Virus record (IMG/VR): IMGVR_UViG_3300020235_000173
Location: 1 to 40,533 of that record
Strand: one strand, 5' to 3'
Length of the DNA: 40,533 nt
Origin: a virus
Taxonomy: Duplodnaviria > Caudoviricetes
Of this stretch, positions 5,126 to 30,257 are shown one piece after another (the stretch's first letter is position 1; each line of letters starts with the position of its first letter). A program made the translations under genes and the position numbers. The notes below the pieces were generated by a model. It searched no databases. It worked only from the letters and a program-made list of their open reading frames with translations, and was not told the DNA's origin.

Positions 5126-5147
5126 GGCCGCCTCCGGGCGGCCTTTT
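5126..5147 (+). terminator. Terminator at the early/late convergence point
   Basis: GGCCGCC-TCCG-GGCGGCC-TTTT between convergent stops at 5118 and 5147. Confidence 0.75.
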
Positions 5148-7079: not shown

Positions 7080-7092
7080 ATCGATCTCCCTT

Positions 7093-7404: not shown

Positions 7405-7407
7405 GAT

Positions 7408-10493: not shown

Positions 10494-10504
10494 ATCCTAT
10501 GTCC

Positions 10505-12108: not shown

Positions 12109-12110
12109 GG

Positions 12111-15100
12111 CTACCTCCTTCTGCCTATCAGATACTCATACCATGCCGCATCCTCGGCCATGTAGGCCTCGATGGCGCGGTTGACCTGACTCGAGGGCAG
12201 ATGCAATGCGGTGCCCAGTGCGCTGATCGTGGTGGTAATTGCCTGCTCATCCAGTTCGCCTTGCTTGACCTGCATAATTACATCGAATACATCCTTCATC
12301 AGCGAGCCAATCGGGGTGTTGCCTGAGCCGTATCTGGCGGTCGAGATTTCACGCAGGAACGGGATGCCGGCAATCATCGAGTCGAGCGTGGCCAGCCCCA
12401 CCCATGCCGCGACGTTGTAAGCATCCATTTTCTCCTCATCGTCACCCTCGGGCCAGTTACCGTAGACCAACTGCGAGGCGATGCCCTCAACCATGAATAG
12501 CATCACGTAATCAATCGCCAGGTTAGCGGCATCGCCAATGGTCCTATCGCTGCGCTTGTACTTCTGCGTTGACTCGTAAGCCAGCCCTTGCTTGCGGATC
12601 ATGTACGAGATCAGCGTCGTCCATAGCCTGACGTACTGTGATTGCCGGGTCCGGTTGCCAAGAGTGCCACGCTCGATCCCTGATCGATCTGCCCAGATAC
12701 CGGATGTCTGTGCGCCTTCTACCTGCGAGTCAGCAAACAGGCGGGAGTCAACCTCAGACAGCGCCATGTTGTTGCGACCATTCCAGTACGCACCCATCCA
12801 TGTCCACACATCGACCAGCGATTGAGCCTTGGCGATCATCCAGAAATACTTGCTGCTGAATAGCTTGAAATTTCGGCTGAATTGGGTCGGGATCGGGCCG
12901 AAAATAGATTTCATGAAGGCCTGAGAATCTGCCACTTCGACGCTGTAGGTCTGCATCACACCGTAGCGGGTGTGCATGAATTTCGAGTTTGCCATGACCC
13001 AGTTGTAGTGGCCGACAGGATTCTGCAGGAACTTGCCAAAGCCCATCATGAAATTTTTCTTGCCGATGAACGCCATCGATTGAAAGGCGCCGGTTATCTG
13101 CAGCAATGTCACCGTGATGCTGAATGCCAGCTTTGATTTCGTGAAGCCCACACGGGTCCAGCCGGCCATTTTCTCCCAGATATTTGACGCCGGCAGCTCA
13201 CCGACCGCGGCATCAGTCGCCCACAGCACCAGCTCTTTCAGTGCGACCTCGTTGTTGGTGAACGTGAATGCCCGCCTGACCTTCTCAGAGTTCAGCAGCC
13301 GCATGATGTAGTTGATCTCGTCGCCTATGGCGATGTCACGAATGGTTTCTCGCAAGTGCTGATCGATGCCGCCCAGTCCGAGACGCACTACCCGGCCATG
13401 ATTCCTGACCCGGTTGTAGGTCGATCCGGCTCGGGTGCTGGATGAGACGTAGAGCCCCTGCCCCATTTTTCTGGCGACCTCGTTAAGATCGTCGGCCTTT
13501 ACTTTGTCACCAAATTTCGGGTTATACCACAGGTGATAGTAGCCACCCTTGACCGTGATCTCTTGATTATCCACAGTATTGATCGTGAACGGCAGCGGCT
13601 CGATTTTCTGCGGCGCAACACCACGCCGGCGCTTTTCTACCGTGGCCAGACCTTCACGGATAACCTTGCCACTATCGTCTTTTTGATCGAACCAGTAAGT
13701 ATCGAGGTAATCCCACATATCCTGAATGAATAGCCAGTCACGGGCATCGAGCGTGGCCAGTGCGGCCATCACTTCGGCTTGCGGGAAGGCATTGCCGACG
13801 ATGTTGCCATCGATATCCTTTCTCACGCCGCCCAGGAGCGCAGCACGGTTGGTATCCGAGCCCCAGTTCAGGCCAATCGATAACACATCCGACCGGGACA
13901 GCTTCTCGCTAAAGCCCTCAATCGTTTTTTTCTTTTCAATGTCAGCCAGCTCCGGGTTGCTGTAGTGCTTGGTATACAGCGCGGCCACATCCTCCTGATA
14001 CTGGTGGATCATCGGGATCAGCTTTTCGGCGTAGGCGCGACGGATCGGAATAGCCAGCAATCTGGTCAGCGCCCCCCACGCATTGCCATCGAGGATGCGG
14101 GAGATCGCGCCGACGCTCAGCGAATGGTAGACCCCCTCTCTGATGGATTCACCAAAGCTCTTTTTGCCAGTCTCCTCTGCGACACCAAAATCGACCACCA
14201 CATTGTTAGCCTTGACGCTCTCGGCAATCTCAGTCTCGACCTCGGCAAGCACAACCTCCTCGCCGTTGACCATTGCCATTTCGCTACGCTTGGGCATGTT
14301 CTCGAGCTGCATCACAATGTCGCGCATCTCACGGAATTCCTGCACCGTGAGTTCCTGCCAGTTAATGCCAAAGCCCTCGTTCAGAATCACCTGCTCATTG
14401 CCGAGATCATCGACAACCACGCGGAATAGCTTGCCGGCCTGCTCGCCATTCATGCTGATGTGGCCAGCGTGAACCATCTCCGCGACTTCCTGCAGCGCCG
14501 TATTTCGATCTACCTCCGCGAGCGAGCGCCGGCGCAGATCAATGCCCTCGATGATCGCGAGGATCGGATCGAGCAGCCCTGCCTTGCCCAGTCGCCGCTG
14601 CGTTACGGGCTTCTCTAATCCCCTGAGATATTTCTGTATCCTGCTGGTCTCCTCCTTGGCCCTGATCGCCGCCCTGAATGCCTCATGATTGCGAATCTGC
14701 GTGGCCTTCTCATCGTAGGCAGTGGCCCAGTCCTGCTTTTCGATTGCCGCCCATGCCCGCCGGCCAGCCTTCTGCTCAGCCAGCCGGTACTTATTGGGAT
14801 TGATCTCTCGAATTTTCAGCTTGCTCATGAAACTCTGAGCCAGCTTCTTGATGATCGACAGCTCAACGCGGGTCGGCAGCAAAGCCTTGGCCGCCGCCTT
14901 GCCCTCAGTGACCTCACGGGCAGCCGCACGGCGCTCAGCGCCGACGATCTTCTGGTCCTTACGCTGCAACCTACGCAACGCCCGCATCTCAGCAGCGAGC
15001 ACCTGAGCCCGCTTGTCGTTATGCACGGAGATCAGCGCATCAGCCGCCAGAGTGCCATCGGTCATCGGATCAGGAAATCTTTCCTCCATCAGCCGATCCG

Positions 15101-18100
15101 TTTCAAACTGTATCAACTCATCCATTGGGCGAGCTGTGACCAAGGCCTGCAGCATGTCCTGTGCATCGGCGTAGCCAAAGACGCCAGCGGCGACATCGAC
15201 ATCGACGCCACCCTTGACGCTGTAGATTGCCGACCGACCGCGTCCGGGGAACCTTGCGAGGAATTCCTGTGAGCCGGCAGCAGCTCTCAGCAGGCTGACC
15301 TTGCTAATCTTGAAAGGAGCAGGCGATAGCGCTGGACTACCATCAGGGAGCTGACCCCGCTGCAGCATTGCCAGTGCGATATACACCGGCATACCATGAA
15401 CCTCGGCAGTGACCTGCTCCTCGATTTTATCGCGCTCGCTCTGCCACCATGCTTGTGCCTGACGAGTGACGTATGCGAGCTGCTTGCGGTGCTCCTGATC
15501 GACCGCCTCCTGATGGGCCTGTTCGGTATTCTCTCGATAGACCTCAAAGGCCTCGGGAGTCATGTTGGCCGCGGCGGCGGTAGAAAATATCGGTCTGAAT
15601 CCCTGCTGCGCCTCGGCGTTTGTGATCGCCTCATCAGTCGCCACCATGCGATCCATGACGCCACGAATCTCGTCGGTCAGCACAATGCCGTCATAGTAGT
15701 TCAGGATGTGCTTGTAGATTTTGACCAGCCACACACTGAATGCAGAGAAAAGCGGCTGCAGCTCATGGGTCGGCGCCACGCCCTCTTGGTAATACGCCTC
15801 TTGGGACTTGGCCCATATCTCATGCTCCTTGGCCGTAATCTCCGAGCGTCTGGTGACACCGATGTATTTCAGAATTTTGGCGTAGTCATCGATGGTTTTC
15901 TGCGGCGCCTCCGGGCGCTCAGCCAGATCGCCCATGATATTGAGCCACAGATGCGCGCTCTCATGCAGAAAGCTCGACAGATCCCGAGCCTTGGCCATGC
16001 GAATGATGCCGCGGCCCTGCTCATCGAATGTGATCGACGCACGGTGCTTGTCCTGAAAATAGGTCAGACCAAGCAGCGCGGTTTGTTTCATCTCGTCGCT
16101 TATATCCAGCGCATGAACCTCAACGCGGGCGAGGGCATCGAAATACTCCAGCTCGAAATTTATAACCCCGCCCTGATTCATGGCCTTCTGGGCGGCCTTC
16201 TTAGTCTTGTACTGACCTTTCCAACCGTTGCGCTTATCGGTGATCTGCCAGTGACCCGCATCAGGATGCTCGATCAGGCCACCGAATTTCTTGACCCGAG
16301 CTTTTTTGTCCAGCGACCGGGCCACGCGATTGGTGACGTTAATCAGCATGTCGTCGTAGAAATCGGCCATGCCCTCGCCGCCGACCATCAAATTATCATC
16401 CGTGATCTCTTGCGAGTAATCAGCCTCGAGAATCTGCTTGGCCAGCCGCTCACCGATGAGGTCCTCGAGCTGCTTGCCTTTCCAGTATTCCGGTGAACCG
16501 CGCTCGATGTTTTCGATAGTGCCATCTCGGGCGACACCAATGCTCATCAGGCGGTTATTGTACATTTTGAAACTCACGGAGCGGCCGGCGTCCGCACCAT
16601 CGGCAGTAAGCCGGCCTACGGCACTGATAGTTTGGACAACCTTTCGCAGATCGTATCGATTGGCCTGCTGCTCTCCGGTGGTCCAGGCTATCTGGTCGTA
16701 ACCCTGCTCGGCGGCTATCCTGATCAGCCGTTTCATGACCAGCTCCATCCACGCAGCACCGCCGAAGGCGAACGGCGGTGCCTTGTTTTCCTCATGCGCC
16801 AGTTGACGAGCAATAAAATCAGCCTCGGTACGGTTACGATGCCACATGGGTTCATTGAGGATGTGGTCTGTGATCGGATCACGTTGACTGGCCAAATCCT
16901 GAGACTGCGCATTCAGCTCAACCAGTCGCTCAGTCATCAACTCAATCGCCAGCAGATTCCTGATGCCATTTTTCCGGGCGAGCTTATCGAAGTCGCTTTG
17001 CATCTCCTCGATAAACAGAATCCGCTCGCCATTAGGACCGGTACGGTCATTCACACGGAACCAAGCGATGATGTTCTTGTAGTCCCTGAAAACGTGGCTC
17101 TCGAATTCACTCGCACTCTCATTCCGCAGTGCGCTCAGCAGCTCGTAGGCTCGCTGTATGGGCGCACCACCAAGCCCTGCAGCACCGAAATCCGCAGCAA
17201 TGACATCGAACTGCTCAAAAGCACGGAGAAAAGCACCCGCGACTGGGCGCAGGCTTGCGCTGAAATGCTCATCGAGCATGCCCTTCTGGTCCTTGGGCAA
17301 GTCATTGTAGGCCGCGATCACCGACAGCTTTGCGGCGTCGTATGCCGGCGTGGAAATGGTCGGCATCTTGAGGATGACCTCACGGTAGTTTTTGCCACCG
17401 GCCAGTTGCCAAGTCGATGCTTCCGGGCCCCGGATCAGGTAAGTGCCATCCCCCAGATCGGAATAGCCCCATCCCGGTATGATGGTGCGGATCGCATCAT
17501 GGGCCTCACGCATCTCTAATATCGCAGCCCTGCCCTCCGGGCTGGCCATCGTGAATTGACCACTCGACACGGCCGCCGTCGCTACATCTACCCGCATTCT
17601 GGCGGCGGCCTGCTCCTCGGGTGTGCCAAAGCGTCCGATAGTCGTGCCATGCTCTCCCTGCAGGGTCGCCATGAATCCGTGGACCTGCTGATCGGTCAGC
17701 ATCTCGAAGGTAATATCTGTGGCATTACCTGTTTTGACCAACTCGGCCTGCTGATCGCTCATCTCGGCCACCATGAGCTGAATGTGCGAGAACCGCCCGG
17801 ACTCCCAGGCCGCCTTAACGTCCACGGGTCTAATGATCTTGCCGGAAACCTCGCCAAGGGTGATCTCCTCGACCCTGAGCCCCCCGGATTCGATGAAATT
17901 GATCAGATTATCCCGTGTAACCGTGCCCTTGGCCGCCATCCATTGCGGTACGCCAATCCATTCCAGCTCGCGCTTTTTGACACCGGGCATTTTCTTGAGC
18001 ATGGAAAGCATCTGCTCAGCCGTGCCCTTCTCTTGCGGCAGCGAGCGGGCCGCATTCAGCAGCCCTGATGTGAACCCGATCTCAGACTGGAACAGGGTGC

Positions 18101-20615
18101 GACCGCCTGCCTTGCTGATCTGGTCCTGCAATTCAAACAAGGCCTGAGTTCTTGCGGCAGCGTCTCCGCGCAGGTACTCGATGTAGGGAACGCCGTGCTT
18201 TCGCAGGGTCGCCCGTATCTCAGGGGCCGCATCGAACGGGATCACGGCGCCGGCAAACTCACTGAGCTTGACCGCGCGCTGCGGCTTGGCCTCAAAATAC
18301 GGCACCGGGTTTGCAATGGTGGCGGCTGCCGCATCGATCCCCTGTTGAATGATCTCGTCAGTGATTGGCCCAACATAACCGGCACGTTGCAGACCGCGGA
18401 TCATGGCCTCTGTGTCACTCAGGCCATCTTTGTTTTGAATCCAGAACAAAGTCGCTTCCCGAGCGGCGTCACTGGCATCAGAGAAAGACCGTAGAGTGCC
18501 CGCATCGTATGGCCACCACGGCTTTAGCGCGGTGATCCAGTCGAGCATCATTTTCTGCGAGACATCGCGGGCGGCCTGCACCTTTTCCGGCGTGTCGATC
18601 TGCTCCAGCGCACGGCGTCTGGCCTCATCGAGGTTCTTGATTCTGTTGGCGGCCTTGGCCCGCAGCAGGCCCTCGCTCGGCATCGTAGTCTCTGTGGCGC
18701 GCAGCTTGCCGCGCATCTTGCGCAGCACGTTTTCCATGGTGTAGGGATACCACCGGCTGCCGATCTTGATGCGCCCCTCACCCATGAGCCCATGCACCTT
18801 GGCATCGATCCAAGCCTTGAATTCGGACTCAGCGCCATGCCCCCAGATGCGCTCATCGAGATAGGTTTTAGTGTCAACATCATTGATCCGGGTGCTGCCC
18901 TTGAGTTTTACATCCCTTTGCAGGCGGTCGTAGGCTTGCAGAGTAAGGGTGCCATCGTCATTGATGATGCCGGCAATCGCTATAGACCGCTGAGTAAGCG
19001 CCCAGACCTTCTCGGCCCGCTCAATCTCACTCTCCGTGATGCGATCTTTGGCCCCGAGGCTGGTCGCCAAAGTGTGATGATGCTGTATCGCTTTCATCAC
19101 GGCGCGGCCAGCTCGTTGCATCAGCTTGATGCGCCGCGGGTCCTCAGAGTCCAGATTTTCAGCGCTCAGATCACCCTCAAAAAACTTGATGATCTGCGGT
19201 TGCCAGCCCCAGATATATCCGGGCTGCACATCATCGACGGTCGGCTCAGGGTCCTCGCCATAGCGCTCGTTGAGAAACCACGCTTTTGCTGAATTGTCGA
19301 AAAGCATGAAATCAACCAGTGCTTGAGCATTGGGCCGGCGGCGAGCGTATTCGATAATGAAATCGGGCAGGCCCACATACCGCGAGCCCTCGATCATCAG
19401 TGACCAGATAGCAGCCTCATCGGCCATCGCCCTGACATCCTCCAGCGAGGCCGGCTTGTGCTGCGCCCGCGGAGTCCTGACCGCGTAGGCATCGGCATCG
19501 AATAGCGGCACCTGCTGCGGATCACCAAGGTCCTCCTTGCCGATCAGGGTGATTTCACCAAAGGACGATAAAGCCTTGTCCGCGGGCAATACAGCAATCG
19601 ATGGCATCGCCAGGCCGCCGAACGAGTCGGCAAATGTCAGGTCACTCGCGGTCAGGTTATGCAGTGCCTGCAGCCTCGGGCCGGCGTCCGACTGGAACAG
19701 CTCTTGGCCAATGAAATGATTGGCCAGCACCGAATGAATGTCCTCGAGGCGTATCGCCTTCTGTGCCGTACCGCGCGCCAGCTCTGCAATTTTCGGCTGC
19801 AGGTAGGTCATCAGGTAGAACATATAATCCGTCAGCAGTACCTCTTTATCGAACGTGATCGCGAAATCATTCGGGCTCTGCCGCTCCCTGAATGGCATCC
19901 CGGCATTGACACCATGCCGCCTGATATACAGATCGCCCTTGCCCGTGGTTTTGAGTTTCCACGGCACTTTAACGTGGATATTCTGAGATAGTTTGCGAGG
20001 ATTTCGGCGCTCACCGTAAAAGATCGTTTTCTGGCGCTCATCGAGCAGGCGTGATCGAATCTCATGCTCAAGGGCCTGATTCAGCAGGGTGTGGGCGCGC
20101 TGCTGCATGGCTTCCCAACTGGCCATCAGCTCCGTAGGCGAACTGCCTTTGATAAAACCACCGACGCCCGCACCCATGAAAACCTCACGCCGCACCGGAT
20201 CAGCAAAGAACATCGCGGCCAGCGCTGCCTGTACTTCCTGCGGGTCATTGAGATCGACTGGAGGCTCACCCTCCGCATAGTTTTGGATGACTTCCTCGGT
20301 CGTCCCGATACGCTCCTGTTCCTCCGTTACCGCAGCCTTCTCCTGCTTGAGGTCCATTTGCTCCTGATGCAGCGTGGCGAGCATGCGCATTTGCAGCGCG
20401 GCCAATTCAGTAATCTTGTCCGAGCGGCGCTGCACGGTGCCACCAGCCAGCTCAATGATGTCAACAACAGACAAAACCTCTGCGATGGCCTCAGACAGGA
20501 TGTTACGCACGGCCGTCACATCGGGCGTTCCCTGTGCGACATCAAGAATGATCGTGGCCCGATCATCGGGCTTGATATCCGCTCGCAGCGTGTGAAAACA
20601 ATCCCTTAGCGTCAT
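12111..20615 (-). CDS. Giant polyvalent internal virion (ejection) protein, C-terminal part (~2834 aa)
   Basis: Start revised to ATG 20615. Contains zincin motif FLHESAH (15951-15965) with downstream HE, an EEMQSD domain, an HNL..GGL.MPSIA...YFEAKP domain, and a helical C-terminal region; last internal-protein gene before the fibres. Confidence 0.88.
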   Translation of the reverse strand: MTLRDCFHTLRADIKPDDRATIILDVAQGTPDVTAVRNILSEAIAEVLSVVDIIELAGGTVQRRSDKITELAALQMRMLATLHQEQMDLKQEKAAVTEEQERIGTTEEVIQNYAEGEPPVDLNDPQEVQAALAAMFFADPVRREVFMGAGVGGFIKGSSPTELMASWEAMQQRAHTLLNQALEHEIRSRLLDERQKTIFYGERRNPRKLSQNIHVKVPWKLKTTGKGDLYIRRHGVNAGMPFRERQSPNDFAITFDKEVLLTDYMFYLMTYLQPKIAELARGTAQKAIRLEDIHSVLANHFIGQELFQSDAGPRLQALHNLTASDLTFADSFGGLAMPSIAVLPADKALSSFGEITLIGKEDLGDPQQVPLFDADAYAVRTPRAQHKPASLEDVRAMADEAAIWSLMIEGSRYVGLPDFIIEYARRRPNAQALVDFMLFDNSAKAWFLNERYGEDPEPTVDDVQPGYIWGWQPQIIKFFEGDLSAENLDSEDPRRIKLMQRAGRAVMKAIQHHHTLATSLGAKDRITESEIERAEKVWALTQRSIAIAGIINDDGTLTLQAYDRLQRDVKLKGSTRINDVDTKTYLDERIWGHGAESEFKAWIDAKVHGLMGEGRIKIGSRWYPYTMENVLRKMRGKLRATETTMPSEGLLRAKAANRIKNLDEARRRALEQIDTPEKVQAARDVSQKMMLDWITALKPWWPYDAGTLRSFSDASDAAREATLFWIQNKDGLSDTEAMIRGLQRAGYVGPITDEIIQQGIDAAAATIANPVPYFEAKPQRAVKLSEFAGAVIPFDAAPEIRATLRKHGVPYIEYLRGDAAARTQALFELQDQISKAGGRTLFQSEIGFTSGLLNAARSLPQEKGTAEQMLSMLKKMPGVKKRELEWIGVPQWMAAKGTVTRDNLINFIESGGLRVEEITLGEVSGKIIRPVDVKAAWESGRFSHIQLMVAEMSDQQAELVKTGNATDITFEMLTDQQVHGFMATLQGEHGTTIGRFGTPEEQAAARMRVDVATAAVSSGQFTMASPEGRAAILEMREAHDAIRTIIPGWGYSDLGDGTYLIRGPEASTWQLAGGKNYREVILKMPTISTPAYDAAKLSVIAAYNDLPKDQKGMLDEHFSASLRPVAGAFLRAFEQFDVIAADFGAAGLGGAPIQRAYELLSALRNESASEFESHVFRDYKNIIAWFRVNDRTGPNGERILFIEEMQSDFDKLARKNGIRNLLAIELMTERLVELNAQSQDLASQRDPITDHILNEPMWHRNRTEADFIARQLAHEENKAPPFAFGGAAWMELVMKRLIRIAAEQGYDQIAWTTGEQQANRYDLRKVVQTISAVGRLTADGADAGRSVSFKMYNNRLMSIGVARDGTIENIERGSPEYWKGKQLEDLIGERLAKQILEADYSQEITDDNLMVGGEGMADFYDDMLINVTNRVARSLDKKARVKKFGGLIEHPDAGHWQITDKRNGWKGQYKTKKAAQKAMNQGGVINFELEYFDALARVEVHALDISDEMKQTALLGLTYFQDKHRASITFDEQGRGIIRMAKARDLSSFLHESAHLWLNIMGDLAERPEAPQKTIDDYAKILKYIGVTRRSEITAKEHEIWAKSQEAYYQEGVAPTHELQPLFSAFSVWLVKIYKHILNYYDGIVLTDEIRGVMDRMVATDEAITNAEAQQGFRPIFSTAAAANMTPEAFEVYRENTEQAHQEAVDQEHRKQLAYVTRQAQAWWQSERDKIEEQVTAEVHGMPVYIALAMLQRGQLPDGSPALSPAPFKISKVSLLRAAAGSQEFLARFPGRGRSAIYSVKGGVDVDVAAGVFGYADAQDMLQALVTARPMDELIQFETDRLMEERFPDPMTDGTLAADALISVHNDKRAQVLAAEMRALRRLQRKDQKIVGAERRAAAREVTEGKAAAKALLPTRVELSIIKKLAQSFMSKLKIREINPNKYRLAEQKAGRRAWAAIEKQDWATAYDEKATQIRNHEAFRAAIRAKEETSRIQKYLRGLEKPVTQRRLGKAGLLDPILAIIEGIDLRRRSLAEVDRNTALQEVAEMVHAGHISMNGEQAGKLFRVVVDDLGNEQVILNEGFGINWQELTVQEFREMRDIVMQLENMPKRSEMAMVNGEEVVLAEVETEIAESVKANNVVVDFGVAEETGKKSFGESIREGVYHSLSVGAISRILDGNAWGALTRLLAIPIRRAYAEKLIPMIHQYQEDVAALYTKHYSNPELADIEKKKTIEGFSEKLSRSDVLSIGLNWGSDTNRAALLGGVRKDIDGNIVGNAFPQAEVMAALATLDARDWLFIQDMWDYLDTYWFDQKDDSGKVIREGLATVEKRRRGVAPQKIEPLPFTINTVDNQEITVKGGYYHLWYNPKFGDKVKADDLNEVARKMGQGLYVSSSTRAGSTYNRVRNHGRVVRLGLGGIDQHLRETIRDIAIGDEINYIMRLLNSEKVRRAFTFTNNEVALKELVLWATDAAVGELPASNIWEKMAGWTRVGFTKSKLAFSITVTLLQITGAFQSMAFIGKKNFMMGFGKFLQNPVGHYNWVMANSKFMHTRYGVMQTYSVEVADSQAFMKSIFGPIPTQFSRNFKLFSSKYFWMIAKAQSLVDVWTWMGAYWNGRNNMALSEVDSRLFADSQVEGAQTSGIWADRSGIERGTLGNRTRQSQYVRLWTTLISYMIRKQGLAYESTQKYKRSDRTIGDAANLAIDYVMLFMVEGIASQLVYGNWPEGDDEEKMDAYNVAAWVGLATLDSMIAGIPFLREISTARYGSGNTPIGSLMKDVFDVIMQVKQGELDEQAITTTISALGTALHLPSSQVNRAIEAYMAEDAAWYEYLIGRRR

Positions 20616-20616
20616 G

Positions 20617-23073
20617 TCAGTCCAAATCGTCAAATATCGCAGTGGCGGCGGCGATGACTATAGCAAGGATTTCCTCATCCTCGATCTCGAGGCGCTTGCG
20701 AATCGGGTCCTCGCGGGCGTAGTCATGCACGGTCGATCCGGGCACCACCAAGCCAACAATGATGGCGTTACCGGTAGAGAACGGTTTGCTGATCGACGGT
20801 GAGCCACTGGCCGTGTGAGTTTGTGGAACAAAGGCCACGCCAGTCGATGTTGGCTTAGTGATCGATGGAGCACCGCTGGCCTTGATCGTGTGAATGGCCG
20901 CGCCGCTCGATGTTGGCTTGGTGATCGAGGGCGAGCCAGCGGCGATCCGCTTGGTGATTGCACTGCCAGCCGCTATCAGCTTGCTGATCGATGGCGCGCC
21001 GCTGGCGGTTATCTTGACCGATGCCAGAGCCTCGCCGGTAGATGTTGGCTTGGTGATCGAGGGCGCACCACTGGCGAATCGCTTGACTGTAGCGCTACCG
21101 GTCGAGGTCGGCTTGGTGATCGAGGGCGCACCGGTAGCCGTGACGATACGGCGAGCTGTGCCGGCTGATACCGGCTTGGTGATCGAGGGCGCGCCGCTGG
21201 CGATCCGCTTAGTGATGGCCGAGCCGGCCGCTATTATCTGGTTGATCGAGGGCGCGCCGGTAGCTGTGACCTTGCGGGTAGCCTCTCCAGCCGATACCGG
21301 CTTGGTGATTGAGGGTGCGCCGCTGGCCTCATGCTTGATGCGAACCAGAGCCTCGCCTGCCGATACTGGCTTGGTGATCGATGGTGTACCGCTGGCGAAT
21401 CGCTTGACCGTAGCCTCGCCAGCCGATACTGGCTTGGTAATAGACGGTGCGCCGCTGGCAATCCGCTTGGCGATGGCTGAGCCTGCCGATACTGGCTTGG
21501 TAATCGATGGCGCGCCGCTGGCCGTGTGTGCGCCTACATGAACCGCCACACCGGTTGCGGTCGGCTTGGTGATTGCCGGGGCGCCAGTGGCCGTTATCTT
21601 GCGAATGGCGCTGCCGGCCGATACTGGCTTGGTAATTGATGGAGCACCGCTGGCCGTGACCCTGCGCGTGGCCTCGCCGGCAGACACCGGTTTGCTGATC
21701 GAGGGCGCACCGCTGGCTATGTGTACGCCTACATGAACTGCCTCGCCAGTCGAGGTCGGCTTGGTGATTGCCGGGGCGCCGGTAGCGGTGATCTTGCGAA
21801 TTGCACTACCGGTCGAGGTCGGCTTGCTGATCGAGGGCGCACCGGTAGCAGTGATCTTGCGGATCGCTGAGCCGGTCGAGGTCGGCTTGCTGATCGAGGG
21901 TGCGCCGCTGGCCGTATGGGTAACGCCGCTTACAGCCTTGAGATCGATGACCTGAAATGTCCGCTGCCGAGCGGTATCGGTGTCTGGTGTGGCTGCGCGA
22001 ATCTTCCATTGCAGCGACATGGCGGTGCTGCCGCTTTCGCCGGTAACAGCCCGCGCCATCAGCAGCGATTCGGCCCGGTCTGCCGCGTCGGTCCACACCG
22101 ATACCTCTGCGCCTTCCAGGGAGCCGCCGATGGACAAACGGTTGTCGCTGGTTTCGTCGGAGCCGGCGCCGATGGTGTAGTTCGCCAGCACCAGCGCTAT
22201 GCTGTCAGTCGAATCAATGACCGGTGTGCCGCTCATATCGGCTATGTCGGTATAGCCTGCCGCTGCGGAGTCAGCACTAACTGATTCCAGATCGACCAGC
22301 AGATCGAAGTCCTCAGTTATCTCAATGACTTGGAAAACCCGTGGCCGCGCCGTATCCATGATCGGCGTGTCAAGGCTACGTTCCCACTGGACCGAAAAGG
22401 TATGGCTGGCTGCCGAAACTCCGGTGACACCCCACGCCATCATGACGCCGGTTGTCTCGTCCACGTTATCCATCACGTTGGTCATGTTCGGGCCATCGCG
22501 TGTGCCGTCGATTGCGAAGCGATGATCCGAAACCTTCTGCCCGGTTTGACCAAGTATTTGACTGCCGTGAATGAATAGCAGCAACGCGCCGGCTGCCGGC
22601 GTTTGCGCCTGCGACAGGTTGGCCATGTTGGCAAAACTCGCAGGCGCGCTATCGCTTGATGACGTTTCAAGATCAACCAGAATCGACGCACCGGACTCGA
22701 TCTCTACGATCTGGAAGGTGCGCGGGAAGGCCGTATCAATGACCGCGGTGCCGGATCGGTTGACCGCTTGCACCGCGAAGGTATGACTGCCGGCCGACAG
22801 CCCGGTGAGCGCGAACATAAGCGTTCGCCCGGTGCCCTCGTCGGTGGCATCGGCAAAGGCACTGACTACCGGGCCGACGCGAGCGCCATCGTGCGTAAAG
22901 CGGTATTCGGCACACTCATCCCCGGACATTTCCGGGTTGAGCGACATCATCAGGATGACCACACTGCCGGTGCCGGCAATGGTCACGGTAGCCGACATAT
23001 CAGCAATGTCGGCAAACGAACCGGTGACTGTATACGCCGAGGAAAGCGTCAGATCAGTGAGCAGATTAGTCAT
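20617..23073 (-). CDS. 818-aa repeat-rich structural/adhesin protein
   Basis: Three tandem ~125-aa beta-sandwich units ending R(T/V)FQ(I/V)(V/I)(E/D), then 18 repeats of 21-23 aa, then an acidic-hydrophobic tail EDEEILAIVIAAA. Confidence 0.8.
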   Translation of the reverse strand: MTNLLTDLTLSSAYTVTGSFADIADMSATVTIAGTGSVVILMMSLNPEMSGDECAEYRFTHDGARVGPVVSAFADATDEGTGRTLMFALTGLSAGSHTFAVQAVNRSGTAVIDTAFPRTFQIVEIESGASILVDLETSSSDSAPASFANMANLSQAQTPAAGALLLFIHGSQILGQTGQKVSDHRFAIDGTRDGPNMTNVMDNVDETTGVMMAWGVTGVSAASHTFSVQWERSLDTPIMDTARPRVFQVIEITEDFDLLVDLESVSADSAAAGYTDIADMSGTPVIDSTDSIALVLANYTIGAGSDETSDNRLSIGGSLEGAEVSVWTDAADRAESLLMARAVTGESGSTAMSLQWKIRAATPDTDTARQRTFQVIDLKAVSGVTHTASGAPSISKPTSTGSAIRKITATGAPSISKPTSTGSAIRKITATGAPAITKPTSTGEAVHVGVHIASGAPSISKPVSAGEATRRVTASGAPSITKPVSAGSAIRKITATGAPAITKPTATGVAVHVGAHTASGAPSITKPVSAGSAIAKRIASGAPSITKPVSAGEATVKRFASGTPSITKPVSAGEALVRIKHEASGAPSITKPVSAGEATRKVTATGAPSINQIIAAGSAITKRIASGAPSITKPVSAGTARRIVTATGAPSITKPTSTGSATVKRFASGAPSITKPTSTGEALASVKITASGAPSISKLIAAGSAITKRIAAGSPSITKPTSSGAAIHTIKASGAPSITKPTSTGVAFVPQTHTASGSPSISKPFSTGNAIIVGLVVPGSTVHDYAREDPIRKRLEIEDEEILAIVIAAATAIFDDLD
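20760..21915 (-). repeat. Coding tandem repeat, 18 units of 63-69 bp
   Basis: Protein consensus xA(S/T)GAPSI(T/S)KP(T/V)S(T/A)GxAxxxx; recurring GGCTTGGTGATCGAGGGCGC on the plus strand. Confidence 0.92.
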
Positions 23074-23108
23074 TGATCTGACCTTGAGTTAAATGGCCAA
23101 GCGCGCCC

Positions 23109-23612
23109 CTAAATGTCTGCGTCTCGATTCGCACGGATGACTACTCTCGCAAGTGTGCTCACGTAAGTCCTGAACTGCGCGTCGGTCATGGTGCTGATAT
23201 TCGGATGGTTAAGCTCCAGCGCGGCATAATCAAGAACGTCCTGTCTGTCCCGGTCCTGACCGGCAGTGTGCTGCGTGGCGTCATGAGAACTCAGCAGTGC
23301 ATCGAGGATAGCGCCCTGCGGTCCAGTCAGGGCGGTGGCGAATTCAAACCGCAGCTCGCCCGGTTGTGCAATGTCCTGAGTGCCAGCGACCTTGTCCTCG
23401 GTGATAACCTTGGGGCCCGGCGCCGGCTCGCCAACAAATCGAGTTTTCTTGACAAAGCCGGCCAGGTCGATGGTTTGAAATGGCAATGCGGAAGCATCCA
23501 GCTCCTCGCGGATCAGGTCACGGTTAAAGTCCTTTAGGACCGTTCTGACTTCAGATGCCATATCAGTGACCTCCACGGTCACATTCGTTACTGGACCCGG
23601 AGGATCGGCCAA
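23109..23612 (-). CDS. Hypothetical structural/chaperone-like protein (TTG 23612 or ATG 23561)
   Basis: GGAGGT precedes ATG 23561, but the 17 upstream codons encode the conserved DPPGPVTNVTVEV peptide. Confidence 0.7.
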   Translation of the reverse strand: MADPPGPVTNVTVEVTDMASEVRTVLKDFNRDLIREELDASALPFQTIDLAGFVKKTRFVGEPAPGPKVITEDKVAGTQDIAQPGELRFEFATALTGPQGAILDALLSSHDATQHTAGQDRDRQDVLDYAALELNHPNISTMTDAQFRTYVSTLARVVIRANRDADI

Positions 23613-23987
23613 TCAGGCCGGTACAGTGATCGAGAAGGATGTCAGCTCAATGGTATCTCCACCTGCAATCACCAGCGATGTGATGTTGATATCGCCACCA
23701 GAGACCAGCACTACGCCCTCAAGCTGCTTCTGGCCATCGCGGTCGAAGATCGAAAACTGCGCAATGGTGCCGGCAGTCGCACTGGCATCCTCGAGCGGCG
23801 TACCCTGCAGCGTGATAACACCTGTGGCTGCTGCGCCAAAGGCGGGATTCTGAAAATCGATGGTTGCGACTTCGGCATCTGCGGAAGTCTCAAATTTCAG
23901 ATTGGAGGTTCCTGCGCCGGTATTGACCGAATCATCTATCGAATTGGCCAGATCGTCTCGCAGCACCGTTTCAAGTGTGAGCGCCAT
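23613..23987 (-). CDS. 124-aa beta-rich virion structural protein
   Basis: Pattern R......I.......L.....F.AA..G.......DASA..GT...F.I......L.G.V...GGD......I..G..I..TSF.IT.P, which I recognise from small phage appendage/tail proteins; AAGGAG RBS. Confidence 0.75.
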   Translation of the reverse strand: MALTLETVLRDDLANSIDDSVNTGAGTSNLKFETSADAEVATIDFQNPAFGAAATGVITLQGTPLEDASATAGTIAQFSIFDRDGQKQLEGVVLVSGGDINITSLVIAGGDTIELTSFSITVPA

Positions 23988-23990
23988 TTC

Positions 23991-24221
23991 TTACTCCTTG
24001 GCTGTTGATTTGTCGTCCGTTACAGCGGCTGCCTCGTCCGCTTCGGCACTAACGATCAGCTTCAATGCCCGCCCGTACTGGCCATTGAAACTGGTCAGTT
24101 CGCCCTTGACCGCGGCGAATTTGGCCCGAGCTGCTTGGAACTTGGCCTGTTCCTTCTCAAAGGCGCTTTGCAGCTTAGCCTGCTCCTTGCGAAGTCCGTC
24201 AAAATCTGGTGAATCAGTCAT
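23991..24221 (-). CDS. 76-aa coiled-coil protein
   Basis: KEQAK repeated twice; AAGGAG RBS; TGATG coupling. Confidence 0.7.
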   Translation of the reverse strand: MTDSPDFDGLRKEQAKLQSAFEKEQAKFQAARAKFAAVKGELTSFNGQYGRALKLIVSAEADEAAAVTDDKSTAKE

Positions 24222-24439
24222 CAGTGTGCTCCTTGGCCTGTGGCCTTATCCAATTCGTGGTAATCACCCGGCACCGCTGCCTCATCGTAGCGAATACTGC
24301 CATCAGGTTTGCGCACGACAGCAGTGCCTTTGAACTCCATTCCCGGCTGATTCAGCAGGGTAGCCAGCTCATCTGGGTCCATAGCCTTAATCTGCTCGAG
24401 CGTGAATGTTTTCTTGATAATTTTCGATGCTGTGTCCAT
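24221..24439 (-). CDS. 72-aa hypothetical protein
   Basis: Abuts both neighbours; beta-hairpin-like FKGTAVVRKPDGSIRY. Confidence 0.65.
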   Translation of the reverse strand: MDTASKIIKKTFTLEQIKAMDPDELATLLNQPGMEFKGTAVVRKPDGSIRYDEAAVPGDYHELDKATGQGAH

Positions 24440-24862
24440 TTAGGTCCCCACTGGTCGTGCAATGATTTTCTCGGTAAATCCGGTGCGCCGGTCGCGCTGA
24501 ATATCGAACTCCCACGACCGCTCACGCCGCATGGTGTTCTTGGCGATGGTGGTCAGCAGGGTGCGCGTCTCGTCGCTGTGTTCAGCCGGCGCCGGTGGCT
24601 CCCTTTCGACCACCGCCCTGAGCGCCTGCATATTCTCGATCAGGGCAGCCATCTGCTCCCCGTGCTGAGCCATATCGCCGCCCTCGTACTCACCGTCACC
24701 CTCAGTACGAGCGTTCCTATGTGTGATCGCATCACACAGTTTATCCATTTTCTCGAGCAGCTCATCGAACCCGGCAATGGTCCTCGGGCCCCTGCTGCTG
24801 TTGAATTCCTCGTCATCGAGGAGCAGTGTGAGCAGTTCCCTTGCTTTAATCTCAGGCGGCAT
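24440..24862 (-). CDS. 140-aa hypothetical protein with C-terminal WEFDIQRD..TG hairpin
   Basis: GGAG RBS; overlaps the end of the 838-aa gene; helical region followed by a terminal beta-hairpin. Confidence 0.7.
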   Translation of the reverse strand: MPPEIKARELLTLLLDDEEFNSSRGPRTIAGFDELLEKMDKLCDAITHRNARTEGDGEYEGGDMAQHGEQMAALIENMQALRAVVEREPPAPAEHSDETRTLLTTIAKNTMRRERSWEFDIQRDRRTGFTEKIIARPVGT

Positions 24863-27368
24863 TTAAGCACTCCAGTAAATCCTGCATCGATCTCAAACGA
24901 TTGACCGCGGTCTGGTATGCAGCATTAGCAGAGCGCGATATTCCCACAATTTCGCCGTCCCGACCAGCAATCTCCATCTGCATGACAATTTGCAGCTCAC
25001 CAAAATTCTGCTGCTCGAGGATGTTGTCTGGCAATGCACCGGGAACCTCGATGATTTCGCTCTGGTGCAATGTTTCGGCGCCGGCCAGTGCTTTCCTGAT
25101 CTCGGCATTGTTCATTGCCTGAATATCAAGCTCAGACTGATCCAGTATGTCAGCCAGCTCGTCCAAATCCTTTGCCAGCTTCGCCGCCAGCGGATCGGCG
25201 CCGCGGCCGAATATCTTCTCACCGCCAGCCTCGCGCATCACCGCTTCCACCAGCATTTCAGGATCGCGCTCGGCAATAAAACCAGCTTCTTCTGCCAGCT
25301 CGGCAGCCTCATCGTGGGTCAGGCCGCCCTCCAAAACCAGATTTTTGACCATAAGCTGCAAATCTCGGGCAGCCAGCTCACCGCCCTGATCCACCAGACC
25401 GCCTTTCTTAATCAGGAATTCGATCAGCGATTCGCCATAGATCTCCCGTTGTTTCGGGCCCTTCTCAGCGCGCAGCAGGTCCAGCAGCGGATCGATGGAC
25501 ATATCCACATCGATTTTCTCGCCAGTGGTATCGCGCTCCTTCTGAATCCCGCCCCAATAGCGATTAAACAGCTCCAGGGTATCGAGATCGTTTCTCTCGG
25601 CCGCGGTTGCATATTTGAACTCCTCGAGCGCCGCCTCTTTTGAGGCCGCGCTAAAGTCCCGGCCGGCATTGGCCATCAGCTCATTGCGGATACGGTCGAT
25701 GATTTCCTGCACTGGCACATGGGTCGATGGAGGTTCGCCAAGCGCCCACGCCTTTTCCAGCTCGCTGGCATTGGCGAAATACTCCGCTGACTCAGTGCCG
25801 GTCATCATCGCCAGATCGGTTTTTATGTCCATCGAAAGCGGATCGTAATGCTCGGTCGCCGCCAGCTTCTCGGCAAACGTGGCGACCTGAATCTCCAGAT
25901 AACTCTGATGTTCTCGGGCCTCTGCAAGCGCCTCGGGTGTGATATTGAGATCGGCAGCAACCTTGTCCGGGTCCATGCCGATATCCTGAAAATAGGTATC
26001 AAATTTCTTGATATCCAGCAGCACGTATTTCACCGATCCTGCTGCCTTATCGACAAAATCACGGAATCTGGCCGGTACGGACTGCCTGAGTTTCGAGTCC
26101 TTGGCAGCTTCACCGAGCGCCTGATAGGCGACCCGCAGGCCTTTGGCACGACGCGCTTGGACAAAATCGCCGGCATAGCTCATGGCGGGGCCAATACCAG
26201 CGATCAGACTCACCGCCTTGGCCGTCTGCACAATGGTCTCACCCATCGAGGATTTCCACTCATCCAGTGTGATGTGCGCATCCGGCTTTTCCTCGACCTG
26301 CACCAGGATGTTTTGCCCCACCGTCATCAGCGAGTCCTGATAAATCTCGACCACGATCTCTGAGCCCATTACCTCGCCATAACGCAGCAGCAGCTTGGCG
26401 GTTGCCGCTTTGACGCTCTGCTTTGCGAGCACCTGACCAGTCAGCTTCTCAGTCAATAGCGCCATGCCCTTACCAGTCAGTTTCCGTGCGCCCGGAATGT
26501 ATTTGAATAGCTGATTGATGCCGAAGGGCTCGGCCACCGCGCCAGCAAGCCCCGCGGCCTTGGCAGCGATAGACGCATTCGCATGAGTGAATCCTGCCTT
26601 GATATACCGGTTGTAGGACTCACCGGTAATCATGTCGTAGCTGCCCCTGACCAGCCCTATGTTCCAGCCTGCATAGCCGCCACTGATGCCACCGGAAGTA
26701 ATGCCAACAATTTCTGAGACGCCGAGAGTGGGCGCCGCCAACGGAAGGCCTGCGACACCGCCAACAACCATACCGAGGCCGATACCGAGCGCTATTTCGT
26801 CAGCGGTATTTCGGATCGCGTACCACATCGGGCCGACTTCCTTGGCGTTATAGACAATCGCCTTGGCCCACAGACTCTCGGCACCGAAGGTATGCGGCTG
26901 CAGCAGCTTCTCGTACTCAGCCATGCGCTCCGCATCGTTTTCGCGAAAATCGCCGTGAGCACGACGCTTGCCGATGTAGTTGTATTCGACCTTGGCCCAG
27001 GTGGAGTCAATCGACAGCGAGATGGCGCGCCAGTTGCGCTCCCATTTGGTCAGATTCTCATTGTCCATCTTGAGCACGGACAGGTGAAATGGATGCTCCG
27101 CGGCGTATGCTGCAAAGCCAGGGCTTTCGCGCTTCCACGCCTCGGGATCGAAGTCCTGATTTTGCTTGAGTTCCTCCTCCAGCTCCTCGAGATTGGCGTC
27201 GATCAGGTTCAGTGCCAGCCCGGTGTACTGGCCCACCGCCATCGAGCGCATTGCGCGGTCTGCATCAATGTTGATCTTATTGCCTAAAGCGAGACGCTGC
27301 GACTCCATCGCCCTGAGCTGCGCCTGCTCCAGCCATTTGTAGCCTAATTGGTCGGCAGGTGTGGACAT
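24852..27368 (-). CDS. Internal virion (ejection) protein, N-terminal part of a polyvalent protein (LPD22-like N-terminus)
   Basis: Follows the gp14/gp15-like genes; Gly/Ala-rich hydrophobic membrane-insertion segment; SKLR...P..F..FV motif; ends TLHQS...LLECLNAA. Confidence 0.8.
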   Translation of the reverse strand: MSTPADQLGYKWLEQAQLRAMESQRLALGNKINIDADRAMRSMAVGQYTGLALNLIDANLEELEEELKQNQDFDPEAWKRESPGFAAYAAEHPFHLSVLKMDNENLTKWERNWRAISLSIDSTWAKVEYNYIGKRRAHGDFRENDAERMAEYEKLLQPHTFGAESLWAKAIVYNAKEVGPMWYAIRNTADEIALGIGLGMVVGGVAGLPLAAPTLGVSEIVGITSGGISGGYAGWNIGLVRGSYDMITGESYNRYIKAGFTHANASIAAKAAGLAGAVAEPFGINQLFKYIPGARKLTGKGMALLTEKLTGQVLAKQSVKAATAKLLLRYGEVMGSEIVVEIYQDSLMTVGQNILVQVEEKPDAHITLDEWKSSMGETIVQTAKAVSLIAGIGPAMSYAGDFVQARRAKGLRVAYQALGEAAKDSKLRQSVPARFRDFVDKAAGSVKYVLLDIKKFDTYFQDIGMDPDKVAADLNITPEALAEAREHQSYLEIQVATFAEKLAATEHYDPLSMDIKTDLAMMTGTESAEYFANASELEKAWALGEPPSTHVPVQEIIDRIRNELMANAGRDFSAASKEAALEEFKYATAAERNDLDTLELFNRYWGGIQKERDTTGEKIDVDMSIDPLLDLLRAEKGPKQREIYGESLIEFLIKKGGLVDQGGELAARDLQLMVKNLVLEGGLTHDEAAELAEEAGFIAERDPEMLVEAVMREAGGEKIFGRGADPLAAKLAKDLDELADILDQSELDIQAMNNAEIRKALAGAETLHQSEIIEVPGALPDNILEQQNFGELQIVMQMEIAGRDGEIVGISRSANAAYQTAVNRLRSMQDLLECLNAA

Positions 27369-29277: not shown

Positions 29278-29814
29278 CTATGTGTAGCCTTCGGGAAGAT
29301 TATATTGCGGGATTTTGAGTTTGCTGGTCTTGGCGGCCAGCAGGCCGCGTTTCATTTGCTCGGACTGACCGAAACCACCAAATGGCGAGCCACCACCCAT
29401 GCCGTAATAGCCTGACACCGCACTGGTGATGGCGTTGATATAGCTGGCGTCCTTGGCAGCGCGGCCTTCTCGACGCGCTGCCTCGGCCCGGAATATCAGG
29501 CCCTCGGCCTCATTCTGGCCAGCCCACAACACCGACAGCATGCGGTACTCGCCCTCGGCGTTGAGATCAGCAAGCAGCGTGGTGATGCCCGGATCGGAGG
29601 TTCTGCCTGTCTGGGCGCCGGCCACCGCCAGCGCTCGGGAATACATGAATTCCTTCTCGCGTTTTTCCGCGGCCAGCTCACGGGTCGCTGCTGCCATGCG
29701 ACGATCAGCGGCCACACGATAGGCGTCGGCTTCACGGTCCTTGAGCTTTTTCTGCTGCGCACCTTTGTAAAGCTGGCCAATGGCCATCACTGCCATCACC
29801 GCTAATTTAGCCAT
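29278..29814 (-). CDS. Internal virion protein, T7 gp14 positional analogue
   Basis: Hydrophobic N-terminus, Ala/Arg-rich helices, Gly-rich C-terminus; synteny. Confidence 0.75.
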   Translation of the reverse strand: MAKLAVMAVMAIGQLYKGAQQKKLKDREADAYRVAADRRMAAATRELAAEKREKEFMYSRALAVAGAQTGRTSDPGITTLLADLNAEGEYRMLSVLWAGQNEAEGLIFRAEAARREGRAAKDASYINAITSAVSGYYGMGGGSPFGGFGQSEQMKRGLLAAKTSKLKIPQYNLPEGYT

Positions 29815-30257
29815 CCGTAATACGCTCCATGTAAATGCGTGAACCCAAGCCGGTGCAGTATCCGACAGCTTTCCGCGTGGTCCGCAACGGCAATCACCGG
29901 ACCTTGGTACTGGTCTGCAAATCTTAAGGAGGCCTTGATTGCGCGCATTATAGTGATTGATCGCAGGTGCGGCTGCAACTCAGGCTTGAAATCACAGAAA
30001 AACTTGCCGTATTCCCGCTCGCGTACCACGCCTATCACCCCTGACAGTTGGCCGTCCACAAAGGCGACAATGCACCGCATGGAGCCCTCTGGCGGGCCGC
30101 CATAATAGCTTTCGAGATCGTCCTGCGTGGCCTGCCGGGTGACTATCTTTGGCGGTTGCTGCGTCTCTCGACTGACTCCATGATCGCCAAGGCTGCCAAT
30201 ACCGTAGCTGGCCTCGGCGCTGCTGCTTCCAAGCATATCCTTGAATCCGTATTCCAA
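29802..30257 (-). CDS. GNAT-like protein, T7 gp13 positional analogue (start uncertain, 30257 or 30236)
   Basis: RQAT..D, VDGQLSGVIG and S.RILHRLGF motifs; lies between tail tubular B and the gp14-like gene. Confidence 0.7.
   Translation of the reverse strand: MEYGFKDMLGSSSAEASYGIGSLGDHGVSRETQQPPKIVTRQATQDDLESYYGGPPEGSMRCIVAFVDGQLSGVIGVVREREYGKFFCDFKPELQPHLRSITIMRAIKASLRFADQYQGPVIAVADHAESCRILHRLGFTHLHGAYYGWLN

What the first reader, a model, noticed from the sequence alone, without database searches (positions are those of the whole stretch)
20361..25070. Giant ejection protein split by a six-gene structural cassette inserted in its variable-domain slot
Seen: the 838-aa ORF has the N-terminal and membrane parts and the ~2834-aa ORF has the cargo, peptidase and C-terminal parts. 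Between them lie six co-oriented, tightly coupled genes (140, 72, 76, 124, 167 and 818 aa) that look like appendage proteins. The 4.7-kb interval is bracketed by the same tetrapeptide TLHQ in both ORFs and supplies a new ~65-aa C-terminus and a new ~80-aa N-terminus. From my recollection of BPP-1/epsilon15-like phages, the LPD22-type N-terminus and the HExxH/C-terminal region are normally one polypeptide. Inference: a whole operon entered as if it were a polyvalent domain, bringing its own stop, start and docking ends so the host protein still works in two pieces. It may add an undescribed appendage coupled to the ejection machinery.
Basis: partly seen in the sequence, partly recalled or inferred. 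Interest (0 to 1): 0.82.

Follow-up and report, generated by a model that had tools for sequence, protein, structure and literature searches.

The report
Clasp-ended cassette splits giant phage protein
A giant protein that most related phages make as one chain, and likely inject into the host, is cut in two here by a six-gene block whose ends give each half its only cysteine on short end-pieces predicted to bind each other, and a similarly built block also splits an N4-like phage's RNA polymerase, so it likely is a portable insert that mends the protein it breaks.

Summary
The split is real, not an assembly chimera. It is shared by a clade nested among one-chain relatives such as Carin1 gp32. 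The insert spans 19983-25061 and is bounded by the [LFY]xQ motif that ends cargo modules in this family. It supplies a 69-aa tail and a 211-aa head carrying the only cysteines of each half (C834, C6). A complex model docks them (ipSAE 0.75, best control 0.01) with the cysteines touching, resembling the disulfide in cyanophage A4 gp27-gp26. In 14 complete cassettes the first gene is always a g140-family gene, the last usually (13/14) ends in an acidic-hydrophobic helix, and the interior swaps freely. One such cassette splits an N4-like virion RNA polymerase. g818 is a predicted single-chain C1q/TNF-trimer fibre. Physical coupling of an appendage to ejection is untested. Cysteine clasps also occur without cassettes and were noted earlier in this scan. 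New variant of a known kind; interest 0.68.

The parts
24852..27368 (-). N-half of giant ejection-type protein (838 aa): weak LPD22, hydrophobic Gly-rich segment aa 192-210, conserved core to aa ~765
   Evidence: 19 full-length split relatives at 33-95% identity
25062..25073 (-). Left slot border, TLHQ aa 766-769 (instance of the [LFY]xQ module end)
   Evidence: motif in 25 of 25 distinct one-chain relatives with cargo where the anchor was found
24855..25061 (-). Insert-borne tail, aa 770-838: QDF motif, hairpin, helix ending at Cys834, the only Cys of the N-half
24440..24862 (-). g140, conserved first gene of the frame: helices plus C-terminal beta-hairpin; function unknown, likely anchor or adaptor
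   Evidence: 253 clusters at 50% identity; 29 of 29 held copies directly behind a Cys-ended ORF; low-confidence fold, no match
24221..24439 (-). g72, interior gene, no family
   Evidence: homologues in 7 close loci
23991..24221 (-). g76, interior gene, no family
   Evidence: homologues in 7 close loci
23613..23987 (-). g124, small virion-structural-family protein
   Evidence: phrog_3758 E 4e-9; 39% to Vibrio phage genes
23109..23612 (-). g167, travels with the g818 head domains into unrelated phages
   Evidence: 44% and 59% homologues directly before g818-like genes in L003 and L005
20617..23073 (-). g818, predicted fibre adhesin: three tandem C1q/TNF-like domains (aa 1-385), 18 repeats of about 21 aa, C-terminal acidic-hydrophobic helix (conserved last element of the frame)
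   Evidence: model pLDDT 83, pTM 0.86; Z 16.1, rmsd 2.6 A over 222 aa to single-chain C1q 5hzf; repeats; tail motif
19983..20615 (-). Insert-borne head of the C-half, aa 1-211: docking part about aa 1-64 with Cys6 (only Cys of 2834 aa), helical extension, ends KLSQ (true right border, 19994-19983)
   Evidence: L008 and P0183 heads end in LYQ/YFQ directly before the peptidase
20364..20375 (-). Second TLHQ, aa 81-84: mid-helix, not a border
19692..19982 (-). Cargo module 1, aa 212-308, ends ELFQ; also internal in other giant proteins
   Evidence: weak DUF6943; P0030 and P0031 matches
18087..19691 (-). Cargo module 2, aa 309-843, PBECR5 nuclease-like domain, ends TLFQ
   Evidence: PF18814 E 1.9e-14; matched end to end in L093, L115, L135, L136, L138
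16053..18086 (-). Cargo module 3, aa 844-1521, ends TYFQ
   Evidence: matched from its border in L013, L034, L112, L114
12111..16052 (-). C-core: HExxH metallopeptidase-like region (HESAH 15965-15951) and IVP-D-like C-terminal part
   Evidence: BPP-1 Bbp10 listed as an IVP-D homologue in PMC4819975 Table 2

Best explanation
This phage encodes its giant Bbp10/Carin1-gp32-type protein, likely an injected internal virion protein, as two genes separated by a six-gene block, and each half ends at the break in a short insert-borne piece that carries its only cysteine; these pieces are predicted to dock and likely form a Cys834-Cys6 disulfide that rejoins the halves. Shown by sequence comparison: the family has a cargo slot whose modules end in [LFY]xQ. 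The unit [tail + stop, g140, variable genes, last gene with an acidic-hydrophobic C-terminal helix, start + head] occupies that slot in module format. Split forms closest to this one make one clade among one-chain forms, and the same frame also splits an N4-like virion RNA polymerase. Inferred: the unit entered once in the ancestor of this clade and was tolerated because its own ends re-tie the host protein. Since then the interior has been a swap site for accessory virion genes, here a predicted C1q/TNF-type adhesin fibre. g140 and the terminal helix likely mount the payload on the virion. The disulfide would form after lysis and might be reduced on entry into the host, releasing the cargo half (speculative).
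For: One-chain relatives are collinear with both halves. Empty-slot one-chain forms carry a single motif (8 rows). Empty-slot split forms show tail|cassette|head-xYQ|peptidase (L008, P0183). The motif is present at the left border in 25 of 25 and before the peptidase in 74 of 83, against 20% background. Trees: 23 of 24 split-labelled rows form one clade, 100/100; 12 of 12 C-cores form one clade, SH-aLRT 99. Cysteines: a single terminal Cys in 27 of 27 N-halves and 15 of 15 C-halves (4 of them partial); none in 14 of 15 one-chain proteins and in 63 of 73 further non-split ORFs. Complex: ipSAE 0.75 against best control 0.01 (mark reached by 116 of 157 solved and 2 of 215 mismatched pairs; counts hold only roughly with own alignments), runs agree in at least 76% of contacts, partner pLDDT at least 75, residue 6 touches tail residue 65 (= Cys834) at 0.8 A expected error. 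No solved sequence homologue was found for the tail, head or peptidase profiles. Precedent: Cys1715-Cys5 disulfide between A4 gp27 and gp26 (PMC12002296 section 8). Frame linkage: 29 of 29 g140 genes lie behind a Cys tail, and 28 of 28 tails lie before g140. g140 was not found in 9 records of one-chain relatives or interior-gene donors, while 3 of 3 positive controls were found. Portability: L160. In L230 the tail starts after a cargo module ending ILNQ and the head ends SLFQ at about aa 67.
Against: No bond or binding was measured. The model may pass by likeness of shape to A4-type pairs. Cys-tipped ends also join abutting ejection genes with no cassette: 12 of 12 short-group loci and 10 of 19 filtered pattern hits. 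The clasp therefore need not have arrived with the cassette, although profile comparison found no homology to the short-group ends (L186-type ends were only scanned with the tail and head profiles, without a hit). No DNA repeat or recombinase marks the insertion. Portability to a different host protein rests on one locus, found with a pattern that selects the head motif; its tail and last-gene matches are weak (E 0.003 and 0.02 among 8 proteins). An independent origin of L230 is not shown (AU p 0.53). L012 has a tail-like QDFG, falls outside the clade and is cut by the contig end. L230's last gene lacks the acidic helix. Loci were fetched via the ejection genes, so g140 in other settings would be under-sampled. 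The source habitats are largely marine sediment and subsurface, where disulfide formation may be disfavoured (my inference).
Confidence: 0.66

Rival explanations
1. Fission first, cassette later: the protein split and acquired clasp ends as two abutting genes, as in the phrog_684-partner phages, and accessory genes then collected in the intergenic gap. The halves work the same way today, but the block is not a self-mending insert.
For: Abutting Cys pairs without any cassette are common (12 of 12; 9 distinct). The L186-type tail (hairpin, helix, LKGC) resembles the L160 tail by eye.
Against: No abutting case in this family: 28 of 28 tails are followed by g140, and 7 of 7 Cys-headed C-halves among the 80 best peptidase loci are preceded by a cassette gene. 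The same first gene follows the tail in a different host protein (L160). No profile homology to the abutting group.
Confidence: 0.2
2. The frame genes are part of the ejection machine: g140 and the terminal acidic-hydrophobic helix bind the clasp, so the payload fibre is physically tied to the ejection protein and could trigger or guide ejection.
For: Strict adjacency and translational coupling of g140 to the tail and of the helix to the head across proteins only 30% identical.
Against: No interaction was tested. Ejection proteins lie inside the capsid (PMC12002296), whereas a C1q/TNF fibre should be outside. The interior also holds non-structural genes, such as Asp/Arg hydroxylase-like genes in L008 and L026. 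L230 lacks the helix. Linkage is equally explained by co-transfer.
Confidence: 0.12
3. The ends dock, but the two cysteines bind a metal or the contact is non-covalent; no disulfide forms.
For: The model shows contact only. Likely anoxic habitats (inference).
Against: Only two cysteines, one per chain, and no conserved second ligand pair in the tail or head alignments. A disulfide is seen in the analogous A4 pair.
Confidence: 0.12
4. Assembly chimera or a decayed, non-functional interruption.
For: All evidence is from short-read contigs, and the one fully spanning contig may be the source sample.
Against: A diverged strain and many relatives at 30-95% identity keep the same arrangement with intact ORFs and invariant terminal residues.
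Confidence: 0.01

Closest known systems
Bordetella phage BPP-1 Bbp10 / Cobetia phage Carin1 gp32 / Xanthomonas podophage giant core proteins (phrog_9880; phage polyvalent proteins of Iyer et al. 2017, PMC5512222)
   Same: Collinear N-core, HExxH peptidase region and C-core; PBECR5 cargo; same gene position after nozzle, acetyltransferase-like gene, IVP-B and IVP-C.
   Different: Those are single chains with no cysteine (Carin1 and SAC). Here there are two chains with insert-borne Cys ends and six genes between. 'Split' does not occur in the main text of PMC5512222.
Cyanopodophage A4 pre-ejectosome gp27-gp26 (PMC12002296)
   Same: The C-terminal helix of one ejection protein docks on the next and is tied by a disulfide to Cys5; here Cys834 and Cys6 are predicted to touch.
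   Different: No sequence match to any solved chain. The section read describes no intervening cassette and no one-chain relatives.
Pseudoalteromonas phage phiRIO-1 nozzle split into gp44 and gp40 (PMC4819975)
   Same: A virion gene that is whole in relatives is split by an inserted module encoding structural proteins, and both pieces are made.
   Different: A different protein and a rare event. No docking ends, cysteine pair or conserved portable frame is described in the section read.
Single-chain C1q/TNF trimers and BclA-like or TNF-like lectin heads (for g818)
   Same: Predicted fold: Z 15-16 to engineered single-chain trimers; Z 7-8 per domain to PLTL lectin, BclA and phage fibre heads.
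   Different: A natural three-domain head at the N-terminus, followed by a 21-aa repeat shaft and a C-terminal helix; about 7-13% identity; ligand unknown.

Membership tests
phrog_9880 / Bbp10-like giant ejection (polyvalent) proteins | Sequence homology of N-core and C-core to the family | tested here: met
   E 1e-29 and 3e-219; Carin1 gp32 31% and 29%
phrog_9880 / Bbp10-like giant ejection (polyvalent) proteins | HExxH metallopeptidase-like motif plus variable cargo domains | tested here: met
   HESAH aa 1551-1555; PBECR5; activity untested
phrog_9880 / Bbp10-like giant ejection (polyvalent) proteins | Position in the internal-virion-protein operon after the nozzle | tested here: met
   nozzle phrog_376 and internal virion protein phrog_418 upstream, fibre-like genes downstream
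phrog_9880 / Bbp10-like giant ejection (polyvalent) proteins | Single polypeptide | tested here: not met
   Two ORFs 4.2 kb apart; filed as a split variant, not a standard member
phrog_9880 / Bbp10-like giant ejection (polyvalent) proteins | Packaged in the virion and ejected | not testable with these tools
   Inferred from synteny; the relative gp35 is only a candidate core protein in bioRxiv 10.64898/2026.02.16.706137
A4-type disulfide-clasped ejection pair | Terminal Cys on facing ends of consecutive ejection proteins | tested here: met
   C834 and C6 are the only cysteines
A4-type disulfide-clasped ejection pair | C-terminal helix docks on the partner's N-terminus | tested here: inconclusive
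   Supported by model only, ipSAE 0.75 vs best control 0.01
A4-type disulfide-clasped ejection pair | Homology to gp27 and gp26 | tested here: inconclusive
   No hit among solved chains; I did not fetch A4 sequences for a direct comparison
A4-type disulfide-clasped ejection pair | Disulfide observed | not testable with these tools
   Needs virions or purified proteins
Self-mobile insertion element (IS, intron, intein) | Target-site duplication or terminal repeats | tested here: not met
   No direct repeat within either border region; the two borders share 12/48 nt
Self-mobile insertion element (IS, intron, intein) | Encoded recombinase, endonuclease or splicing domain | tested here: not met
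   No such Pfam, PHROG or NCBIfam hit for the six genes or the halves

The most novel reading that the evidence does not exclude
A portable, self-mending gene frame: an operon-scale analogue of an intron. It inserts at module borders of giant phage ejection proteins of different families (Bbp10-like and N4-like vRNAP), repairs the cut after translation with its own cysteine clasp, and carries its own mounting pair (g140 plus terminal helix) for an exchangeable set of adhesin and appendage genes.
Probability: 0.45. Interest if true: 0.85.

Novelty: new variant of a known kind. Interest (0 to 1): 0.68.

Why it matters
It shows how an essential giant virion gene can accept a whole operon without loss of function, and it defines a short [LFY]xQ-bounded module grammar for a large family of injected phage proteins. 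It gives a compact two-peptide test (69 aa plus about 65 aa) of whether ejection proteins are tied head to tail by disulfides, which bears on how such proteins are packaged and threaded out. It also marks a conserved slot from which unknown receptor-binding appendages of uncultured sediment phages can be read. The clasp idea has one structural precedent and has been raised repeatedly in this scan; the conserved frame, its portability and the slot motif are what this locus adds.

Tried and rejected
TLHQ as a duplicated target site: rejected. DNA repeats, promoters or terminators marking the block: none above chance. Chimera: rejected. Homology of tail and head to the abutting short-group pairs: no signal above internal control windows. 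g140 identity: no Pfam, PHROG or NCBIfam family, Atlas under 0.9, model pTM 0.25 with no BFVD match, no match in cultured phages for a distant member. My recollection that such hairpins end portal proteins was not borne out in the 150 of 253 hits listed, all but one under 190 aa. g140 elsewhere in one-chain relatives: 0 of 9 records, several incomplete. Solved-structure sequence searches for N-half, C-half, g124, g818, tail, head and peptidase: nothing meaningful. Independent origin of L230: not resolved. L084, L094 and L104 looked split but are one-chain genes with a frameshift or stop and no clasp ends. The first direct locus search with N838 found nothing. Literature searches found no description of this cassette; the library lacks most subscription papers, and no supplements were read (those of PMC5512222 and PMC12002296 may bear on split forms and on clasp conservation).
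Full report
Setting. The window is a 40.5-kb podophage record. On the minus strand lie terminase, portal, scaffold-like gene, capsid, adaptor, nozzle, an internal virion protein of phrog_418, a 633-aa gene, then the finding, then fibre-like genes. Runs that hold the stretch are marine sediment, marine and subsurface metagenomes.

The observation. The ORFs are as described. N838 and the 2834-aa ORF match successive parts of one profile, phrog_9880. They also match one 2854-aa protein of Cobetia phage Carin1: N838 262-763 aligns to gp32 377-886 and the C-half resumes at gp32 907. The arrangement is not a chimera. One contig spans 16000-29500 (possibly the source sample), contigs of a roughly 93-94% identical strain cross each junction, and no listed joint skips the block. 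Nineteen N-halves of 824-884 aa at 33-95% identity end the same way.

The borders. The second copy is mid-helix and variable, and a shared tetrapeptide is expected in 58.5% of shuffles. The slot idea is nevertheless right. One-chain relatives carry [LFY]xQ just after the N-core in 25 of 25 distinct cargo-bearing cases (8 rows without the anchor were dropped). The motif also precedes the peptidase in 74 of 83 rows, split and one-chain together, against 20% background. Eight empty-slot proteins have one motif only. C2834 has four such ends (KLSQ 211, ELFQ 308, TLFQ 843, TYFQ 1521), and relatives share its modules from border to border. In L008 and P0183 the head ends in LYQ or YFQ directly before the peptidase. 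The insert therefore runs from after TLHQ 769 to KLSQ 211, window 25061-19983. No DNA repeat remains. Whether the motif is a recombination-friendly linker or a cleavage site for the HExxH domain is untested; autoproteolysis is proposed for such domains in PMC5512222 (passages).

History. On the N-core tree, 23 of 24 split-labelled rows form one clade (100/100) among 14 one-chain rows; the exception, L012, is cut by its contig end. On the C-core tree 12 of 12 split rows form one clade (99) among 37 one-chain rows; 2 rows were dropped and only part of the 80 loci was used. Roots are midpoint only. Among the 80 best of 521 peptidase loci, 7 have the Cys head and all 7 follow a cassette gene.

The ends. 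N838 has one cysteine, C834, and C2834 has one, C6. The same holds for 27 of 27 N-halves and 15 of 15 C-halves, while 14 of 15 one-chain proteins have none; 63 of 73 further non-split ORFs have none. The complex model of head 1-211 with tail 770-838 scores 0.75 against a best control of 0.01. The mark was reached by 116 of 157 solved and 2 of 215 mismatched pairs, counts that hold only roughly with own alignments. Contact agreement is at least 76% and partner pLDDT at least 75. The interface is head 1-64 on the tail helix, and C6 touches C834. This supports binding but does not show it, and a pass by likeness of shape to a solved pair is possible, though no sequence homologue was found among solved chains. 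In cyanopodophage A4 the C-terminal helix of gp27 is tied to gp26 by Cys1715-Cys5 (PMC12002296, passages and section 8). I was led to that paper and to the sole-cysteine count by earlier scan notes and checked both.

The cassette. I count 14 distinct complete cassettes: window, L006, L007, L008, L011, L015, L040, L078, L081, L162, L163, L212, L230, L160. All begin with a g140-family gene. Thirteen end in a gene with an acidic-hydrophobic C-terminal helix coupled to the M[AT]LxDC-type start; L230 does not. The blocks hold about 4 to 12 genes and the interior varies. Across all loci then held, 29 of 29 g140 genes follow a Cys-ended ORF and 28 of 28 tails precede g140; these loci were mostly fetched through the ejection genes. 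The g140 family has 253 clusters at 50% identity. It was absent from 9 records of one-chain relatives or donors and found in 3 of 3 controls. Interior genes move on their own: g167 plus the g818 head occur at 44-84% identity in two unrelated phages. g124 is in a virion-structural family. g818 folds as three tandem C1q/TNF-like domains packed like a single-chain trimer, followed by 18 repeats, so it is a likely adhesin fibre. g72, g76, g140 and g167 have no family. Most interior genes of relatives also have none, and two are hydroxylase-like.

Portability. A head-motif scan gave L160. There an N4-like virion RNA polymerase is split into 1331-aa and 2087-aa genes, each with one facing Cys, around six genes that start with a g140 homologue (E 1.3e-5 genome-wide) and end in an acidic-hydrophobic helix. 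The head motif was selected by the search; the other three features were not, though the tail and last-gene scores are weak. L230 and L212 are divergent phrog_9880 members with the frame and short heads of about 65 aa. L230 is cut after a cargo module, again between motif instances, but its separate origin is not shown (AU p 0.53).

Against. Of 79 loci from a wider scan, 19 passed an ORF filter: 9 were cassette-associated (g140 upstream in 8, the acidic last gene alone in the truncated L171) and 10 were abutting Cys pairs with no cassette; the two partners scanned belong to phrog_684. Twelve short-group loci show the same abutting pattern. The clasp is thus wider than the cassette and may be its source. 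Nothing ties the payload physically to the ejection protein.

Known and new. Bbp10 is listed as an IVP-D homologue, and phiRIO-1 has a nozzle gene split by inserted structural genes (PMC4819975, passages and section 7). The Xanthomonas relative gp35 is a candidate core protein with no structural match (bioRxiv 10.64898/2026.02.16.706137, passages). bioRxiv 10.1101/2021.05.28.446129 (passages) and PMC13730344 (abstract) added nothing decisive. Seven searches found no description of a clasp-ended cassette; supplements were not read. Earlier scan notes describe cysteine clasps several times; they are leads, not support. The labels IVP-A/B/C for neighbouring genes follow the gene order in PMC4819975, and 'acetyltransferase-like' for 29802-30257 is recalled, not hit. 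Verdict: real; a new variant of a known kind; interest 0.68.

Noticed in passing
window 35804-36184 (-) versus 35428 onward (-): The 126-aa Ser/Gly/His-rich ORF upstream of the capsid gene begins MAETSFQTHYR, nearly the capsid's own start MAETAFQIQYR, suggesting a duplicated capsid start left by insertion of small basic genes between scaffold and capsid.
   Followed up: no
L160 minus strand, 2767-16534: N4-like virion RNA polymerase split by a six-gene block with the same frame as this finding.
   Followed up: partly
L003:9498-11443 and L005:8267-11358: g167 plus the triple C1q/TNF head of g818 (84% and 66% identity) in unrelated phages, with different shafts and next to phrog_240 genes: a mobile adhesin module.
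   Followed up: partly
L018, L053-L071, L178, L186, L191, L195, L199, L206, L208, L225, L240: Abutting ejection genes (about 560-830 aa followed by about 750-850 aa; phrog_684 for the two partners scanned), nearly all with a single cysteine on each facing end and no cassette.
   Followed up: partly
L038:4885-5965: A T7-type tail-fibre N-terminal domain gene (phrog_1640) follows the cassette genes; the contig ends before any C-half is seen.
   Followed up: no
L008:7734-8183, L026:6207-6647, L041:1594-1939: Enzyme-like genes inside cassettes: two Asp/Arg beta-hydroxylase hits and one sulfotransferase-like start (recalled motif, no hit); possibly fibre-modifying.
   Followed up: no
L012:9293-11574: Distant N-half with a very short link to a QDFG tail motif, outside the main split clade; the contig ends before the stop.
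   Followed up: partly
window 7093-7404 and 7500-8069 (-): Two small proteins resembling by eye fibronectin-like genes found inside cassettes of L008 and L031; g189 matches the L031 cassette gene at 31%, so this payload type also sits outside the frame here.
   Followed up: no
window 16053-19982 (-): [LFY]xQ module ends resemble protease cleavage sites (recalled); the adjacent HExxH domain could process the cargo.
   Followed up: partly
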